Of a stretch of 64,000 bases of DNA, positions 53,555-62,978 are shown one piece after another. The position numbers and the translations under genes were made by a program. Position 1 is the stretch's first letter; each line of letters opens with the position of its first letter. Below the pieces are notes generated by a model. It was not told the DNA's origin. It ran no database searches and was given only the letters and a program-made list of their open reading frames with translations. Source of the stretch: Cyanobacteria bacterium P01_F01_bin.150 (lineage in GTDB: Bacteria; Cyanobacteriota; Cyanobacteriia; CAKZMO01); assembly GCA_039189765.1 (NCBI GenBank), contig JBCCYL010000013.1:41893-105892 (forward strand). Direction: 5' to 3'.

Positions 53555-54334
53555 TTACCAATCAGCTCTGGGGCATTGAGAATATTCTTTTGCATAGGAA
53601 GATGGCGAGTCCATACTGTCTCGATCAGCAACCATATCAGCGGTGATTTGAGATTTAACATCTTTAATGGCTCGTATTAAAGGATCGGCTATTTGGTTTT
53701 GAATCGTATTTATTTGAGTCGGGTCAATGTAGCAAGGAGTTTGGGCTGTTGGTAGCACAATACCCTGTGCTCGCTGAACCATCGTGGAGCGATGGTTGCG
53801 GAAGATGCGCAGGAAATTTCGGGCGTGGCGATATTCATGGGCATAGGTCACCTGATAAGGACAGCTCCCACGGGCATAATCTGAAGAAATAGCAACGGTT
53901 AAAGTGTGAACATTAAAACCGACATTAGCAGACCGGACAAAAATTCCAATTTGTCCCTGAGAGTTGGGCATTGGAGTCCGACCCCACGCAATGGACAGCG
54001 AAGGCCGATGGCTAATGTGGGTAAACCCTGCACGGTTCACCGACTTGCCCGGTGGACCAGGATTGGGTTGGGAATGGTCGGGACGAGCTGGAGGAGCTAC
54101 GTGAGTAAAGCTGATGTAGTAAGGCGCAGGCACTGAAGAAGATGCGATCGCCCCTTTTCCCTGTCCTCCAGTAGCTTGTTCTCCCTTAGAGTGTTGATGG
54201 GCCTTTGGGGGTTGGAAGAACGAATCGGTGCTAGAGGACTGAAAAAATCCGGCGGTCTTTTGTGAGGAAAAGAAAGAACTAGGGGTATTTAGTTCCTTGG
54301 ATCGCTCAGGGTGAGTGGGCGCTTTTCGTTTCAT
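53555..54334 (-). CDS. Hypothetical protein with FF-rich disordered leader and HExxH motif (candidate eCIS cargo)
   Basis: N-terminus SSFFSSQKTAGFFQSSSTDSFFQPP; CPYQVTYAHEYRH. Confidence 0.75.
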   Translation of the reverse strand: MKRKAPTHPERSKELNTPSSFFSSQKTAGFFQSSSTDSFFQPPKAHQHSKGEQATGGQGKGAIASSSVPAPYYISFTHVAPPARPDHSQPNPGPPGKSVNRAGFTHISHRPSLSIAWGRTPMPNSQGQIGIFVRSANVGFNVHTLTVAISSDYARGSCPYQVTYAHEYRHARNFLRIFRNHRSTMVQRAQGIVLPTAQTPCYIDPTQINTIQNQIADPLIRAIKDVKSQITADMVADRDSMDSPSSYAKEYSQCPRADW

Positions 54335-54346
54335 AGTCTTTATTCC

Positions 54347-60600: not shown

Positions 60601-62978
60601 TAAGTCAGGTAGCCATCCCAGAACCCGTCTTTTTCTCGGTTGCGTACTCGACGCTGCACGTCTGAGGGGGCACCCTCTGCTCGTCGGTAAGCAAGCTCGT
60701 GCTCTGTAGCTCGATCCAGTGCTTGTCTTCCCTTTTCTCGTCCAATTTGCAATAAGTCGTTATACGCCGTTTGATAAACCTCATCCAGCCGAGTCATCTG
60801 GTCTGTTTGGGCTTGTTCCAGTTGCTGACCTTGTTCCTCATAGATAGGTTTAATCTCGGCCTGGGCTGCCATTGCTCGTAAATCAATGGCCATGATCGTT
60901 TCCAGGTGTCTGGCTTCAATTTGCTGGGTTGCAGCTTGGGCTTGGGTTTGGGCCGATGTTCGTAGCTGCTCCATAAGGGCTTGGGTGCGAGCACGACGCT
61001 GCTGGATTTGGGTCATCAGGACGGCCTTCTTCTCAGCGGTGTCTGCTCTCAAAGTTTTTGCAGCAGCGATCCCCTGGGCAATAAAGCTATGGAGACGTTG
61101 ACCAGCCTGACTGAGAAAAGCATCAGCCATAGAGCTGGCATTCTGATGATTAGCCAGAGCCTGTTGGTGAGAAGCCGGATCGCCAGTTTGATCAATTGGA
61201 GCCACAAACCGTAAACCACCTGCTGTGACAGATGCAGCAGTTAATGACGTTTCATCCAGTGTTGCCAAAGCTTCATCTGCCGAAACAGATAATTCGTCAC
61301 GTTCGGCAGCAACATCTGGACTAGCAGCTTCCCCACGCCCCTCGGGTTCAAGGTTAGCTGCTGTTCCTTGAGCTGCCTCTACCAAGAAACTATTGGTTTC
61401 GGTTTCTGGTTCAGCCACCGCCGCTTCTTGCACACCTTCTGGAGCAGCAGCAGCAGGAGATTCTCCTGTTGCTGGAGCTGCTGCTTGCTGAGTCTCGCCT
61501 CCAGCAGCGCCGCTATCTCCCGGAGTTGGGCTAGCCCTGGTTTCTGCACTACCCGCCCCTGCCGCTTCGCGCACCGCACAAGGATCTTGGGGAGCTGTTT
61601 GCTCAGCTTGTTCAGCAGTTTCGGCAATCTCTTCTTCTCCTTCTGGAGCATTTTCATCAGGTGGAGGTGCATTACTCTGGCGCTCATCAACAGGAATACC
61701 TTCACGCGCTTCTACATCGGCAGGGGTTTCTTCTTGATCTGGTTCTTCAGTCCCTTCTGGTGGCTCTTCTGCGGGAGGATTCGTCTGTCTACAATCACCA
61801 ACATTAGGAGCCGTTTCAGCTTGTTGAGCTTGTTCTTCACTACCACGCTCTTCTTCCTCAGCTTCACATTCGGTATCTCGCTGAATCAAATTGGTTTGGA
61901 CTGTTGCCTGGTTACCATTACTGGTGGGTGCTGCACCTTGCTGCACCGTATGAGTTAGTTCATGGGCCAGCAAACGTTCCCCAGCCTTTGATTGAGGATT
62001 GTATTTACTATTGTTGAAGTAGATATCTGAGCCGTGAGTAAATGCTTGTGATCCCAAATCTCGATTTAGTTGAACAGCTTGACTATCGGTATGAATGCGA
62101 ACATTGCTAAAGTCAGCTCCGAATGTTGGTTCCATTCGACTTCGGGTAGATTCATCTAATGGAGAACCTCTACCTTTGCTGGTATTTAGTTGATTGGCTA
62201 TTTTGCCTGCACTGATGGCTTTTCCAGAACCTGCTTTTTGTAATGGTTTAGACTGAAGGGCGAGTTCTGCGGGAGCTAGCCGAGCCGAGGGTTGAGCCAA
62301 TGTATACTGAAGGTCTGGATTGGGAGTATTGGCAACGCGATCAGCCATCGCATCAGCTTCACGTTCATAGACATCCCCTGGTTGACCTATCTTCAAGCTG
62401 AATTGGATAGGTTGTGAGTCTTCGTTATTCCCCTCATCTGGATTGCTAACAGTTGGCATGCGTTGAACCTGAAGTTCACCTTCATTCTGTTCTTTAGATT
62501 GCTCTTTTTCTTCAGTCTCACAGGTTGCACATTTCGTCTGTAGAGTGGCTGATGTTGCAGTAACGGCCTCAGCATGAGGTAATGGCTGACGTTGAAGAGG
62601 TGTTTCGTCACTCTCAAAAGCAGGCATACGCTGAATAATTGGGGCACTAACTCCAGGCATCATTTTGGTCTGCATTGCCTGAACATCACTCTCGAAAGCG
62701 GGCATTCGTTGGAGTTCTGGAACCTCAGCTTGTTTTTTCTCCGTTGCACAGGTTTCACATTTGGCCTGGATGTGGAGAATTTGGGTTGATCGGAAAAAGG
62801 GAGCGCGATCGCCCCCTAGCTTTGCCTGAATCCCAGAAACCCCAGCTGACGGGAAAAAGGGGTTTGGATTAGGCGATCGCTCCGAAAAAAACGCCTGCTC
62901 CTGTTCTTGGGCGGATGAGGTGGAATGATCCGCTTGATGCTGTTGACTATGAGTACGGCTAACATCGGCTGTTTTCAT
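57639..62978 (-). CDS. DUF4157 (eCIS core) domain polymorphic toxin-like protein
   Basis: KIGQPGDVYEREADAMADRV; DUF4157 GSPLDESTRSRMEPTFGADFSNVRIHTD..AFTHGSDIYF..LLAHELTHTVQQ; long helical region; Gly/Ala hydrophobic helices; C-terminal HSGLSGG..AGEI..NGSGHYRP domain. Confidence 0.88.
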   Translation of the reverse strand: MKTADVSRTHSQQHQADHSTSSAQEQEQAFFSERSPNPNPFFPSAGVSGIQAKLGGDRAPFFRSTQILHIQAKCETCATEKKQAEVPELQRMPAFESDVQAMQTKMMPGVSAPIIQRMPAFESDETPLQRQPLPHAEAVTATSATLQTKCATCETEEKEQSKEQNEGELQVQRMPTVSNPDEGNNEDSQPIQFSLKIGQPGDVYEREADAMADRVANTPNPDLQYTLAQPSARLAPAELALQSKPLQKAGSGKAISAGKIANQLNTSKGRGSPLDESTRSRMEPTFGADFSNVRIHTDSQAVQLNRDLGSQAFTHGSDIYFNNSKYNPQSKAGERLLAHELTHTVQQGAAPTSNGNQATVQTNLIQRDTECEAEEEERGSEEQAQQAETAPNVGDCRQTNPPAEEPPEGTEEPDQEETPADVEAREGIPVDERQSNAPPPDENAPEGEEEIAETAEQAEQTAPQDPCAVREAAGAGSAETRASPTPGDSGAAGGETQQAAAPATGESPAAAAPEGVQEAAVAEPETETNSFLVEAAQGTAANLEPEGRGEAASPDVAAERDELSVSADEALATLDETSLTAASVTAGGLRFVAPIDQTGDPASHQQALANHQNASSMADAFLSQAGQRLHSFIAQGIAAAKTLRADTAEKKAVLMTQIQQRRARTQALMEQLRTSAQTQAQAATQQIEARHLETIMAIDLRAMAAQAEIKPIYEEQGQQLEQAQTDQMTRLDEVYQTAYNDLLQIGREKGRQALDRATEHELAYRRAEGAPSDVQRRVRNREKDGFWDGYLTYNRYMARADAVKKVGEEYRDGFQNEAQAQADNMMCGKSRDIETTQTIINQSLESLGCAQDNAIDSIENQRQFAIDMAERARQEATNTIRSALHATLNQLNEREAGQLQLIQDYGIRQKMAIERDSERAVGAVLQGANNATLQILQYLGQFRDQIETTEAPPPDIFAAQLATEQAQLTAFFNGAQTAFDQSLNQAQTNLDTAQAKALRAFEQLYQRGANEAQQLASSFQQTAQDLVVGTMSGYDQTLAAYDERITGEITNSTQILQGVVAGAISVFGQMNAGLESQFQQSASQMGQGMQQTLDENLDQKVCAEAEKAAADVHPWWKTVLKVLLIIVVIVVVALVLGPAIIGAVGAAATALAGSLGAGAALAGTIGAWIGPIIGGAIVGAIAGAAIQLGSNAIYNKPLTEGLWGAIIAGAIGGALGGVGGQLGQVLVGRFASTAFSRIAIQYGTDVVFDVVGGILGDLAAGNPITWESIVMGLAIGGAVQLSMGGLGSLAGQSRAARAAGAAEVPDGFVGRLARGRMGRAAERITDFQGRAMAAGERLGARVGGRGGRAPTAEATSEALASARARMDAGEAFPIRGGQEPDGFGGQSRGIEPGRTESGAQTTPPSREFSDSTDINDPRVRQELDELGPMTSETRQMLADNPRLRQALLENPVAARALKKCASPCFPTNMDPVDVDRLGQFLNDHPDIDSSRLTDYLYQNRSNPSELSKAVDNLIDAPDPKAFVDNIDLPNRVTSAELDAEVTARLENQGIPKETFDELTAMGYPSDVLQGSLKRFQGVRGEADLANFVEFLRSFGAGNKPRSLVQALENLHAGGSASDSASDFISRVSNMHQLPDLRPLDVEALSARYRAGDSLLAQGHLDDPIYPAKPHEITDGYIWQTPSANNPAKGLKGHVDFVIVDQGGTLKLVFGTAHSGLSGGALSVYGAGEIYFAKNGLIYRITNGSGHYRPTENNLNRAYRWLIQNGYLDPNSPVDLDIIY

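What the first reader, a model, noticed from the sequence alone, without database searches (positions are those of the whole stretch)
53555..62978. Shared Phe-Phe N-terminal leader on three genes: candidate eCIS loading signal
Seen: the toxin begins ...QEQAFFSERSPNPNPFFPSAGVSGIQAKLGGDRAPFFRSTQILHIQAK; the 90-aa protein has SQAAFFSPSQKEQPFFQKNSTDTIQARL; the 259-aa protein has PSSFFSSQKTAGFFQSSSTDSFFQPP. All show a polar disordered start with repeated (A/P/S/G)FF(S/Q/P/R) motifs, two followed by IQA(K/R)L, in otherwise unrelated proteins. Known: PVC cargos are packed via N-terminal leaders. Inference: a portable packaging signal that marks two further cargos lacking DUF4157.
Basis: partly seen in the sequence, partly recalled or inferred. 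Interest (0 to 1): 0.8.

Follow-up and report, generated by a model that had tools for sequence, protein, structure and literature searches.

The report
Shared Phe-Phe cargo tag, injection system
Three neighbouring genes at the end of a phage-tail-like injection system operon begin with the same conserved Phe-Phe leader, which is most likely the address tag that loads them into the injection tube.

Summary
The 1779-aa DUF4157 toxin, the 90-aa protein and the 259-aa protein all start with a polar leader holding 2-3 FF pairs.

A leader profile finds only these three among 39,507 ORFs of the genome. Against 1.84 billion proteins it finds 73, and 70 of them match at residue 1-2. Of the 73, 47 carry DUF4157.

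The window's end joins, by a unique 141-nt overlap, a complete contractile injection system (CIS) operon. That operon is closest to the Anabaena thylakoid-anchored CIS, then to AlgoCIS. The three genes lie between the tape-measure gene and a short AAA+ ATPase.

The leader is conserved in orthologues. It recurs on several cargos per locus in other cyanobacteria and in Bacteroidota, and there too on proteins without DUF4157.

[quoted passage not shown] Loading itself, and which component reads the FF pairs, are not tested.

This is a new member of a known kind. In the papers I could search I found no description of the motif.

The parts
63856..64000 (-). 3' end of the CIS tape-measure gene (last 47 residues and stop). 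The rest of the gene is on contig C1.
   Evidence: tblastn of the L011 tape-measure protein: residues 545-591 match here at 81%. The last 141 nt of the contig are identical to the first 141 nt of C1 and occur nowhere else in the genome. The C1 ORF is Pfam CIS_TMP, E 1.6e-121.
63093..63803 (-). 236-aa protein of no known family, between the tape-measure gene and the toxin
   Evidence: ORF. Only sub-threshold coiled-coil-like Pfam hits. Distant relative in L012: 25% identity, E 1e-6.
57639..62978 (-). 1779-aa DUF4157 (eCIS_core) toxin-like cargo
   Evidence: Pfam eCIS_core, E 9.9e-32, at aa 273-349. Orthologue in L011/L047 lies directly after the tape-measure gene.
62754..62978 (-). Toxin leader, aa 1-75: FF at 30-31, 41-42 and 61-62; IQAKL and IQAKC
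   Evidence: Translation. Leader HMM E 1.7e-15, residues 7-69.
61932..62162 (-). DUF4157 / eCIS_core domain of the toxin
55820..57621 (-). Three small ORFs (166, 210 and 228 aa) in a 36% GC stretch downstream of the toxin. They have no leader. Candidate immunity or accessory genes (inference).
   Evidence: ORFs, GC profile, no Pfam family over cut-off.
54834..55628 (+). 264-aa peptidoglycan-binding, GH19-like hydrolase on the opposite strand
   Evidence: Pfam PG_binding_1, E 2.5e-20; Glyco_hydro_19, 1.8e-4, below cut-off.
54347..54619 (-). 90-aa protein: FF leader (aa 1-45) plus an acidic Met/Glu-rich tail
   Evidence: Leader HMM E 1.7e-16. Orthologues in L047 and L012, with a third-codon-position excess of changes, e.g. 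22/12/56. No Pfam or NCBIfam family.
53555..54334 (-). 259-aa protein: FF leader (aa 1-43, three FF), then a folded domain (aa 70-259) with invariant HExxH at 166-170
   Evidence: 12 full-length homologues at 56-72% identity keep the three FF. AF2 model: residues 8-65 have pLDDT below 50, the domain above 90. No Pfam or NCBIfam family.
52787..53260 (+). 157-aa predicted membrane protein on the opposite strand
   Evidence: ORF with hydrophobic stretches; no family.
51189..52532 (-). 447-aa AAA+ ATPase. A single AAA domain (aa 242-367) follows a 190-aa N-domain (51963-52532).
   Evidence: Pfam AAA, E 7.8e-27. The N-domain HMM hits only this one of the seven CIS-type ATPases in the genome. The same N-domain is on 29 of 30 ATPases beside related cargos in metagenome loci.

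Best explanation
The FF leader is the N-terminal loading (packaging) sequence of a contractile injection system of the Anabaena-tCIS / AlgoCIS clade. Its layout is:

- a basic, polar start, usually Met-Lys
- a first Pro-Phe-Phe about 20 residues in
- one or two further FF pairs at fixed spacing
- then a hydrophobic-Gln-x-Lys-Leu element

The leader marks the DUF4157 toxin, the 259-aa HExxH protein and the 90-aa acidic protein as cargo of the system encoded just upstream. The cargo genes sit between the tape-measure gene and the system's own short AAA+ ATPase.

By analogy with AlgoCIS and PVC, the ATPase engages the disordered leader and feeds the unfolded cargo into the inner-tube lumen during assembly. 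In a genome with seven CIS-type ATPases, a leader found only at this locus would also keep cargo sorted to the right machine.

Shown here: the motif, its N-terminal position, its conservation, its specificity to CIS cargo, its portability across C-terminal domains, and the operon context.

Inferred: that it drives loading, that the ATPase (and which part of it) reads it, and that the two small proteins are injected.
For: Context
- The window end joins contig C1 through a unique 141-nt overlap, in the same reading frame.
- C1:1-24,700 encodes cap, sheath, three tube proteins, spike, PAAR, gp25, Baseplate_J and CIS_TMP.
- The sheath and baseplate are closest to PDB 7B5H, the Anabaena tCIS (E 1e-183 and 0). 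Next comes AlgoCIS, 7ADZ/7AEB.

Specificity
- The leader HMM gives three full-length hits among 39,507 ORFs, and they are the three window proteins.
- In 401 cyanobacterial genomes there are 20 full-length matches at E<=1e-8, in 8 genomes. All 8 are among the 25 genomes that have this ATPase N-domain.
- Two genomes that did not contribute to the model (G159, G399) also have FFx3 DUF4157 cargos beside CIS genes.

Position and portability
- A leader-only profile finds 73 cluster representatives among 1.84e9 proteins. 70 of them match from residue 1-2. Protein lengths run from 92 to 1785 aa.
- 47 of the 73 have eCIS_core and 26 do not.
- Spacing is rigid: FF1-FF2 is 9 residues in 67 of 68, FF2-FF3 is 11 in 54 of 68, and Lys is at residue 2 in 68 of 73.
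- 20 Bacteroidota-type proteins keep F23 F24 F32 F33 F43 invariant while their C-termini are unrelated.
- 7 of 46 leader-positive ORFs in metagenome loci lack DUF4157.

Selection
- 12 orthologues of the 259-aa protein keep all FF pairs while the linkers vary.
- The leaders share no DNA similarity, so the resemblance is not a recent duplication.

Multiple cargos per locus share the leader: G139 has 4, G146 has 3, G062 has 3, G322 has 2.

Experiment in a sister system (preprint 10.64898/2026.05.27.728243, passages)
- The disordered NTD of Cgo1/Cgo2 is required for loading.
- DUF4157 is dispensable.
- The AAA+ Alg15 is required.
- NTDs are alike within a system.

ATPase: only the window's ATPase has the 190-aa N-domain, 1 of 7 in the genome.
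Against: - No loading, binding or expression data exist for these proteins.
- The link between the ATPase N-domain and FF is not strict. The same N-domain family accompanies cargos with one FF or none: L124-L127, L143, L166 and L167. It also accompanies a cyanobacterial group whose leaders have no Phe at all.
- Of 122 DUF4157 ORFs in related metagenome loci, 33 have no FF and 16 have one.
- 6 of the 8 genomes with strong hits supplied sequences to the model, and the genomes are related to each other, so that tally is partly circular.
- Many of the 26 leader proteins without DUF4157 are short and may be gene fragments.
- The window's own leaders depart from the canonical 9/11 spacing: toxin 11 and 20, 90-aa 10, 259-aa 9 and 9.
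- I could not obtain the AlgoCIS Cgo1/Cgo2 or Anabaena Alr3311/Alr3312 sequences, so I could not check whether they carry the motif.
Confidence: 0.6

Rival explanations
1. The leader is a conserved pro-region of DUF4157-type polymorphic toxins with a role other than loading. For example, it could be a propeptide cut at the repeated hydrophobic-Gln-x-Lys/Met sites by the HExxH-bearing DUF4157 domain, in cis or in trans. Or it could be a segment that keeps the toxin inactive or bound to a chaperone in the producer. On this reading the two small proteins are regulators, decoys or old remnants of toxin 5' ends.
For: - The hQxK(L) element recurs many times after the leader in the toxin and in other DUF4157 proteins of the genome.
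- Partial HMM matches to that element alone are widespread.
- DUF4157 and the 259-aa domain both hold HExxH.
- The 90-aa protein is just a leader plus an acidic linker, like the first part of a toxin.
Against: - The leader also sits on proteins with no DUF4157.
- In AlgoCIS the NTD is needed for loading, whereas DUF4157 is not.
- In that system, growth inhibition by Cgo1 did not depend on the metalloprotease motifs (PMC8894135, passages).
- The 90-aa ORF is under coding constraint in three genomes.
- A processing role and a loading role do not exclude each other.
Confidence: 0.2
2. The FF pairs act after delivery, not during loading. For example, they could insert into or cross a target membrane, or bind a target-cell factor. 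Loading would then depend only on disorder and charge of the first 20 or so residues.
For: - Published descriptions of eCIS signal peptides stress hydrophilicity, disorder and positive charge of the first 20-50 residues, and report that no conserved sequence was detected (PMC11297309, passages).
- Here the first 20 or so residues are basic and polar, with median net charge +2 before the first FF.
Against: - Rigid spacing (9 and 11 residues) and a Pro before FF (130 of 214 positions) point to a fixed binding partner conserved across two phyla. A machine component fits this better than varied targets do.
- The leader is shared by cargos with very different predicted activities.
Confidence: 0.1
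3. The resemblance is a by-product of low-complexity composition or of recent local duplication, and has no function.
For: The regions are polar, low-complexity and short. The 259-aa protein and the toxin give no significant pairwise alignment.
Against: - Genome-wide rarity.
- Invariant FF columns across 21 leaders from 9 genomes.
- Conservation in 12 orthologues.
- 70 of 73 database matches start at residue 1-2.
- No DNA similarity among the three leaders.
Confidence: 0.02

Closest known systems
AlgoCIS cargo loading sequence (NTD of Cgo1/Cgo2) with the AAA+ Alg15 (bioRxiv 10.64898/2026.05.27.728243, passages read; PMC8894135, passages)
   Same: - Disordered N-terminal region ahead of an optional DUF4157 domain.
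- Shared by the cargos of one system.
- An AAA+ ATPase is encoded in the cluster.
- The structural proteins of this locus are second-closest to AlgoCIS in the PDB.
- Bacteroidota DUF4157 proteins carry the same FFx3 leader.
   Different: - No experiment here.
- The preprint states that the loading sequence is not conserved between systems. It does not mention phenylalanine: 0 occurrences.
- Here the motif is conserved across Cyanobacteria and Bacteroidota.
- I could not see the Cgo sequences, and the preprint's supplements are closed. Whether the Cgo proteins carry the FF motif is therefore open.
PVC / Afp N-terminal signal peptides with Pvc15 (PMC11495950, abstract and section 3.1; PMC11297309, passages)
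   Same: N-terminal, disordered, hydrophilic leader. It directs diverse payloads into the tube, depends on an AAA ATPase, and can be moved to other proteins.
   Different: - PVC belongs to eCIS lineage Ia.
- Pvc15 has three domains with tandem AAA D1/D2. This ATPase has one AAA domain and a different 190-aa N-domain.
- PVC signal peptides show 'rare homology' and no consensus.
Anabaena thylakoid-anchored CIS, with putative effectors Alr3311/Alr3312 (PMC8894136, passages; PDB 7B5H)
   Same: Closest solved relative of the sheath (E 1.2e-183) and the baseplate protein (E 0). It is also from a cyanobacterium, and it has DUF4157 proteins as presumed tube cargo.
   Different: Its cargo leaders were not analysed in the passages I read. 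A cyanobacterial group with a 31-35% identical ATPase N-domain has DUF4157 cargos with a leader free of Phe. I did not test whether this locus is thylakoid-anchored.
DUF4157 / eCIS_core marker domain of eCIS-associated toxins (Pfam PF13699; PMC8213781 seen in a search listing only)
   Same: The large toxin has the domain. 47 of 73 leader-bearing proteins have it.
   Different: The 90-aa and 259-aa proteins do not match it: no Pfam hit, and hhalign probability 1.4%. The leader is a separate module placed N-terminal to it.

Membership tests
CIS N-terminal cargo loading sequence (AlgoCIS LS / PVC signal peptide kind) | Lies at the extreme N-terminus of the cargo | tested here: met
   All three window proteins. 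70 of 73 database matches begin at residue 1-2. The other 3 begin at residues 9 or 31, each just before an internal Met-Lys, which suggests over-extended start calls.
CIS N-terminal cargo loading sequence (AlgoCIS LS / PVC signal peptide kind) | Intrinsically disordered, hydrophilic, no Sec/Tat-type hydrophobic core | tested here: met
   AF2 pLDDT is below 50 for residues 8-65 of the 259-aa protein. The sequences are polar, with no hydrophobic run. Disorder of the toxin and the 90-aa leaders was not computed separately.
CIS N-terminal cargo loading sequence (AlgoCIS LS / PVC signal peptide kind) | Cargo genes lie in or next to a CIS operon that encodes an AAA+ ATPase | tested here: met
   The genes lie between the tape-measure gene and the ATPase. 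The operon is joined through a unique 141-nt overlap. The same order is seen in L011/L047.
CIS N-terminal cargo loading sequence (AlgoCIS LS / PVC signal peptide kind) | Leader is similar among the cargos of one system | tested here: met
   Three proteins here. 2-4 proteins per locus in G062, G146, G139, G322 and G159.
CIS N-terminal cargo loading sequence (AlgoCIS LS / PVC signal peptide kind) | Necessary and sufficient for loading into the tube, dependent on the ATPase | not testable with these tools
   Needs particle purification with mass spectrometry, and reporter fusions.
DUF4157 / eCIS_core (for the 90-aa and 259-aa proteins) | Match to the PF13699 profile | tested here: not met
   No Pfam hit at E<=0.01. 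Profile-profile comparison of the 259-aa family with a DUF4157 alignment gives probability 1.4%, E 0.038. Only the HExxH stretch aligns.
Zincin-like metallopeptidase (for the 259-aa C-domain) | HExxH in a helix | tested here: met
   H166, E167 and H170 are invariant in 15 sequences. They lie in helix 158-190 of the model.
Zincin-like metallopeptidase (for the 259-aa C-domain) | Zincin fold and a third metal ligand | tested here: inconclusive
   No PDB match: Foldseek best E 1.1, VIA-align best Z 5.9 to generic helical proteins. Conserved D242 and Y247 could serve, but that is a guess.
Anabaena-type thylakoid-anchored CIS | Structural proteins closest to the 7B5H components | tested here: met
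   Sheath E 1.2e-183; Baseplate_J protein E 0.
Anabaena-type thylakoid-anchored CIS | Membrane-anchoring features (Cis12 extension, Cis13 transmembrane part, Cis19) | not tested
   The 1576-aa and 1664-aa proteins on C1 have no Pfam family and were not compared further.

The most novel reading that the evidence does not exclude
A rigidly spaced tri-aromatic linear motif is the shared address code for tube loading across the whole tCIS/AlgoCIS clade, in two phyla. The motif is Met-Lys, then Pro-Phe-Phe at about residue 20, further FF pairs 9 and 11 residues on, and then hQxKL. It would be read by the machine's short single-ring AAA+ ATPase.

If so, the motif by itself predicts cargos that lack DUF4157: the 259-aa HExxH protein, the 90-aa acidic protein, and the YkuD-like and 245-aa families elsewhere. 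It would also give orthogonal cargo sorting in genomes with many CIS (seven ATPases here). This would contradict the published view that eCIS loading signals have no conserved sequence.
Probability: 0.4. Interest if true: 0.75.

Novelty: new member of a known kind. Interest (0 to 1): 0.6.

Why it matters
How contractile injection systems choose their cargo is an open question. The passages I read say that no conserved signal sequence has been detected (PMC11297309) and that loading sequences are not conserved between systems (preprint).

A short, rigidly spaced and easily mutated motif makes the recognition step directly testable, by FF-to-AA changes or by transplanting the leader into AlgoCIS. 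The motif is shared by cargos of many loci in two phyla.

It also gives a sequence-only way to find cargos that lack the DUF4157 marker. Two such candidates lie in this window.

Tried and rejected
- Complex prediction, ATPase alignment A5 with leader alignment A3: score 0.00, no verdict. Not used as evidence.
- Fold searches of the 259-aa model: no PDB match.
- Fold searches of the ATPase N-domain model: Foldseek best E 0.66. VIA-align best Z 4.9, to winged-helix / MarR-like chains, which is too weak to use.
- hhalign of the 259-aa family against DUF4157: not significant.
- hhalign of the 259-aa family against a 448-aa HEFRH protein from L130: only the leader aligned, probability 17%.
- The search for related loci in viral contigs with A6: none of 175 pattern matches was confirmed.
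- Looking for named Algoriphagus Cgo1/Cgo2 among hits: none among the listed rows, so it stays open whether the Cgo proteins carry the motif. The listing of cluster members gave no organism names.
- The search of earlier findings: nothing returned.
- Sequencing runs: no RNA holder listed. The only holder may be the source sample.
- NCBIfam: no family for the leader, the 90-aa protein or the 259-aa protein.
- Pfam on the toxin's C-terminal 353 aa and the 600 aa before it: nothing.
- The idea that the 90-aa gene is a non-coding remnant: rejected by the codon-position pattern.
- Recent duplication of the leaders: rejected.

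
Full report
**Observation.** They begin as quoted. The toxin has FF at residues 30-31, 41-42 and 61-62, with IQAKL and IQAKC. The 90-aa protein has FF at 22-23 and 32-33, then IQARL. The 259-aa protein has FF at 21-22, 30-31 and 39-40.

Across the 10.6-Mb genome, only 43 of 39,507 ORFs of 50 aa or more have two or more polar-context FF motifs in their first 90 residues. Only three ORFs have three, and two of those are here. Outside the leader the proteins are unrelated, and the leaders share no DNA similarity longer than 10 nt. The likeness is therefore old and kept at the protein level. 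It does not come from a recent duplication.

**Context.** The window ends at the end of contig C13. Its last 141 nt are identical to the first 141 nt of contig C1, and this 141-mer occurs nowhere else in the assembly. The overlap lies inside a tape-measure gene, in the same frame on both contigs.

C1:1-24,700 (minus strand) encodes a full contractile injection system:
- Pvc16_N cap
- sheath
- two gp19 tube proteins and a CIS_tube protein
- VgrG-like spike
- PAAR
- gp25
- a 1360-aa Baseplate_J protein
- two very large proteins without a family
- CIS_TMP (E 1.6e-121)

The order is thus: structural operon, tape measure, 236-aa ORF, DUF4157 toxin, three small ORFs in a 36% GC stretch, an opposite-strand peptidoglycan hydrolase, the 90-aa gene, the 259-aa gene, an opposite-strand membrane protein, and a 447-aa AAA+ ATPase.

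An Elainellales MAG (L011/L047) has the same order: tape measure, toxin, one ORF, 107-aa, 256-aa, ATPase.

In the PDB the sheath and the Baseplate_J protein are closest to the Anabaena thylakoid-anchored CIS, 7B5H (E 1.2e-183 and 0). AlgoCIS is next.

**The leader is conserved.** Twelve full-length homologues of the 259-aa protein (56-72% identity) keep all three FF pairs, while the residues between them vary.

The 90-aa gene has orthologues in two other genomes, and changes pile up at third codon positions (for example 22/12/56). It is therefore a real coding gene.

An alignment of 21 leaders from 9 cyanobacterial genomes has M1, F30, F41 and F42 invariant, and F31 at 90% or more.

**Specificity.**
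- *Own genome.* A profile of 18 leaders, run over all ORFs of the genome, puts the three window proteins first (E 1.7e-16, 1.7e-15, 8.3e-9). Every other hit matches only the last third of the profile, the hQxKL..GD.YEQEAD element that DUF4157 proteins share.
- *401 cyanobacterial genomes.* There are 20 full-length matches at E<=1e-8 in 8 genomes. All 8 are among the 25 genomes that hold this ATPase's N-domain. Six of the eight contributed to the profile, and the genomes are related to each other, so this count overstates the case. Two genomes outside the profile, G159 and G399, do have FFx3 DUF4157 proteins beside CIS genes.
- *1.84 billion cluster representatives.* A leader-only profile (52 positions, without the GD.YEQEAD part) finds 73 proteins at E<=1e-3. 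70 of them match from residue 1-2, and their lengths run from 92 to 1785 aa. 47 have eCIS_core and 26 do not. 64 have exactly three FF in the first 95 residues.

The geometry is strict. Lys is at position 2 in 68 of 73. The first FF lies at a median position of 20.5. The FF1-FF2 spacing is 9 in 67 of 68, and the FF2-FF3 spacing is 11 in 54 of 68. Pro is the usual residue before FF. The window's own leaders are variants of this pattern: spacings of 11 and 20, of 10, and of 9 and 9.

**Breadth and portability.** Relatives named by their sources come from Bacteroidota: Agriterribacter, Psychroserpens, Aquimarina, Puia, Mariniflexile and others.
- 36 of 40 hits, and 88 of 95 further hits, have two or more FF. 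Both searches used queries that contained the leader.
- Twenty such proteins keep the FF columns invariant while their C-terminal parts do not align.
- In 72 metagenome loci, 122 DUF4157 ORFs split as follows: 73 with two or more FF, 16 with one, and 33 with none.
- Seven of 46 leader-positive ORFs in those loci lack DUF4157. They are a 245-aa family (four members), a YkuD-like protein (Pfam E 0.0064, below cut-off), an 803-aa protein, and a 448-aa protein with HEFRH.
- A C-domain relative of the 259-aa protein without the leader lies in Actinomycetota and Acidobacteriota MAGs. In one MAG it is 4.5 kb from a DUF4123 gene.

**The two small proteins.** The 259-aa protein is a disordered leader (pLDDT below 50 for residues 8-65) on a confidently modelled domain. 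That domain has strands 72-78, 103-119 and 129-149, and long helices 158-190 and 205-241. Invariant H166, E167 and H170 lie in the first long helix, and C158 and C254 are also invariant. The domain has no Pfam or NCBIfam family and no PDB match. It is not detectably DUF4157. A small metal-dependent hydrolase is a reasonable guess, but only a guess.

The 90-aa protein is a leader plus an acidic Met/Glu/Ala-rich tail. It resembles the first part of a DUF4157 toxin without the rest. Its role is open: a small cargo, a filler, or a competitor for loading.

**The ATPase.** The genome has seven CIS-type ATPases. Six are 649-805 aa and lack the window ATPase's 190-aa N-domain. Only the window's ATPase has it (E 8.3e-91). 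The same N-domain is on 29 of 30 ATPases next to related cargos in the metagenome loci. The one exception is an ORF cut at a contig start. The N-domain models well (pLDDT 87), but it has only weak winged-helix-like resemblances (Z 4.9 or less).

The pairing with FF is not strict. The N-domain also accompanies cargos with one FF or none. It also accompanies a cyanobacterial group (31-35% identity) whose DUF4157 cargos have a different leader with no Phe. What reads the FF pairs is therefore unknown.

**Mechanism.** I commit to the loading-signal reading (0.6). The leader is N-terminal, disordered, specific to CIS cargo, shared by the cargos of a locus, portable, and placed next to the system's AAA+ ATPase.

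In the sister system AlgoCIS the disordered NTD of the DUF4157 cargos is required for loading. There DUF4157 is dispensable and the AAA+ Alg15 is required (preprint, passages). PVC works in a similar way (PMC11495950, abstract and section 3.1).

The rivals are a pro-region processed at the hQxK sites (0.2), a post-delivery role for the FF pairs (0.1), and chance or duplication (0.02).

**Novelty.** The kind of signal is known. I found no description of this motif in print.
- A search for 'DUF4157' gave 38 papers.
- A search for 'contractile injection' + cyanobacteria + cargo + N-terminal gave 22 papers.
- A search for 'contractile injection' / 'loading sequence' / phenylalanine showed that the AlgoCIS preprint has 0 occurrences of phenylalanine.
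- The passages I read say that no conserved sequence was detected and that loading sequences are not conserved between systems.
- Pfam and NCBIfam have no model for the leader.

The preprint's supplements are closed. Its alignment of the Cgo NTDs is a figure I could not see, so the motif may be visible there without being named.

**Limits.**
- There is no experiment, and no RNA run is listed.
- The contig join rests on a k-mer-length overlap.
- Several tallies use queries that contain the leader.
- Many short proteins 'without DUF4157' may be fragments.

Noticed in passing
window 1-45859 (+): Three giant ORFs (4210, 6266 and 4766 aa) encode a modular polyketide synthase with KS, KR, DH, methyltransferase and ACP domains and RhiE/CurL-like linkers. 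They are unrelated to the finding.
   Followed up: partly
window 46428-48680 (-) and 49659-50924 (-): A 750-aa NACHT NTPase and a 421-aa WD40 protein lie just downstream of the CIS ATPase. A WD40 protein also lies upstream of the CIS operon on C1, at L017:5226-7394.
   Followed up: no
window 55820-57621 (-): A 36% GC stretch holds three ORFs (166, 210 and 228 aa) with no family and no leader, directly after the toxin. They are possibly immunity genes brought in together with the toxin's C-terminal part.
   Followed up: no
window 54834-55628 (+) and 52787-53260 (+): A PG_binding_1 / GH19-like hydrolase and a small membrane protein sit on the opposite strand among the cargo genes. They may be a lysis or release pair for the particles.
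   Followed up: no
window 63093-63803 (-): A 236-aa protein lies between the tape-measure gene and the toxin. It has a distant relative at the edge of the cargo cluster in L012 (25% identity, E 1e-6). It has no family.
   Followed up: partly
genome G000, contigs C1, C5, C17, C25, C115, C223: The genome carries seven CIS-type ATPases, sheath genes on six contigs, and 11 DUF4157 domain matches. That is an unusually large set of injection systems for one genome. The cargos of the other loci have no FF leader.
   Followed up: partly
window 57639-62978 (-), toxin body: After the leader the toxin has repeated QRMPAFESD-like units and two K-C-x-x-C-E motifs. It also has a long Gly/Ala/Ile-rich hydrophobic region (about aa 1130-1330). 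Its C-terminal 350 aa have no Pfam family.
   Followed up: partly
L056-L061, L064 (cyanobacterial genomes G222, G291, G134, G004, G333, G212, G253): A second, Phe-free leader type is conserved on DUF4157 cargos placed just after an ATPase whose N-domain is 31-35% identical to the window's. It looks like a parallel, system-specific leader.
   Followed up: partly
P0086 (346 aa, metagenome protein): This protein carries two leader copies in tandem, with five FF in the first 95 residues. It has a weak Aspzincin_M35 hit (E 0.0034, below cut-off).
   Followed up: no
L015:9731-10585 (+) and 15067-16026 (-): In an acidobacterial MAG, a leaderless relative of the 259-aa C-domain (35% identity) lies 4.5 kb from a DUF4123 gene. 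I recall DUF4123 as a type VI secretion adaptor family; that is memory, not a call. It hints that the domain is an effector module used by other secretion routes.
   Followed up: no
L065:5716-7290 (+), genome G147: This 524-aa protein sits right after the tape-measure gene and has no DUF4157. It has a weak Endonuclea_NS_2 hit (E 0.0019, below cut-off) and a degenerate leader with a single FF.
   Followed up: partly
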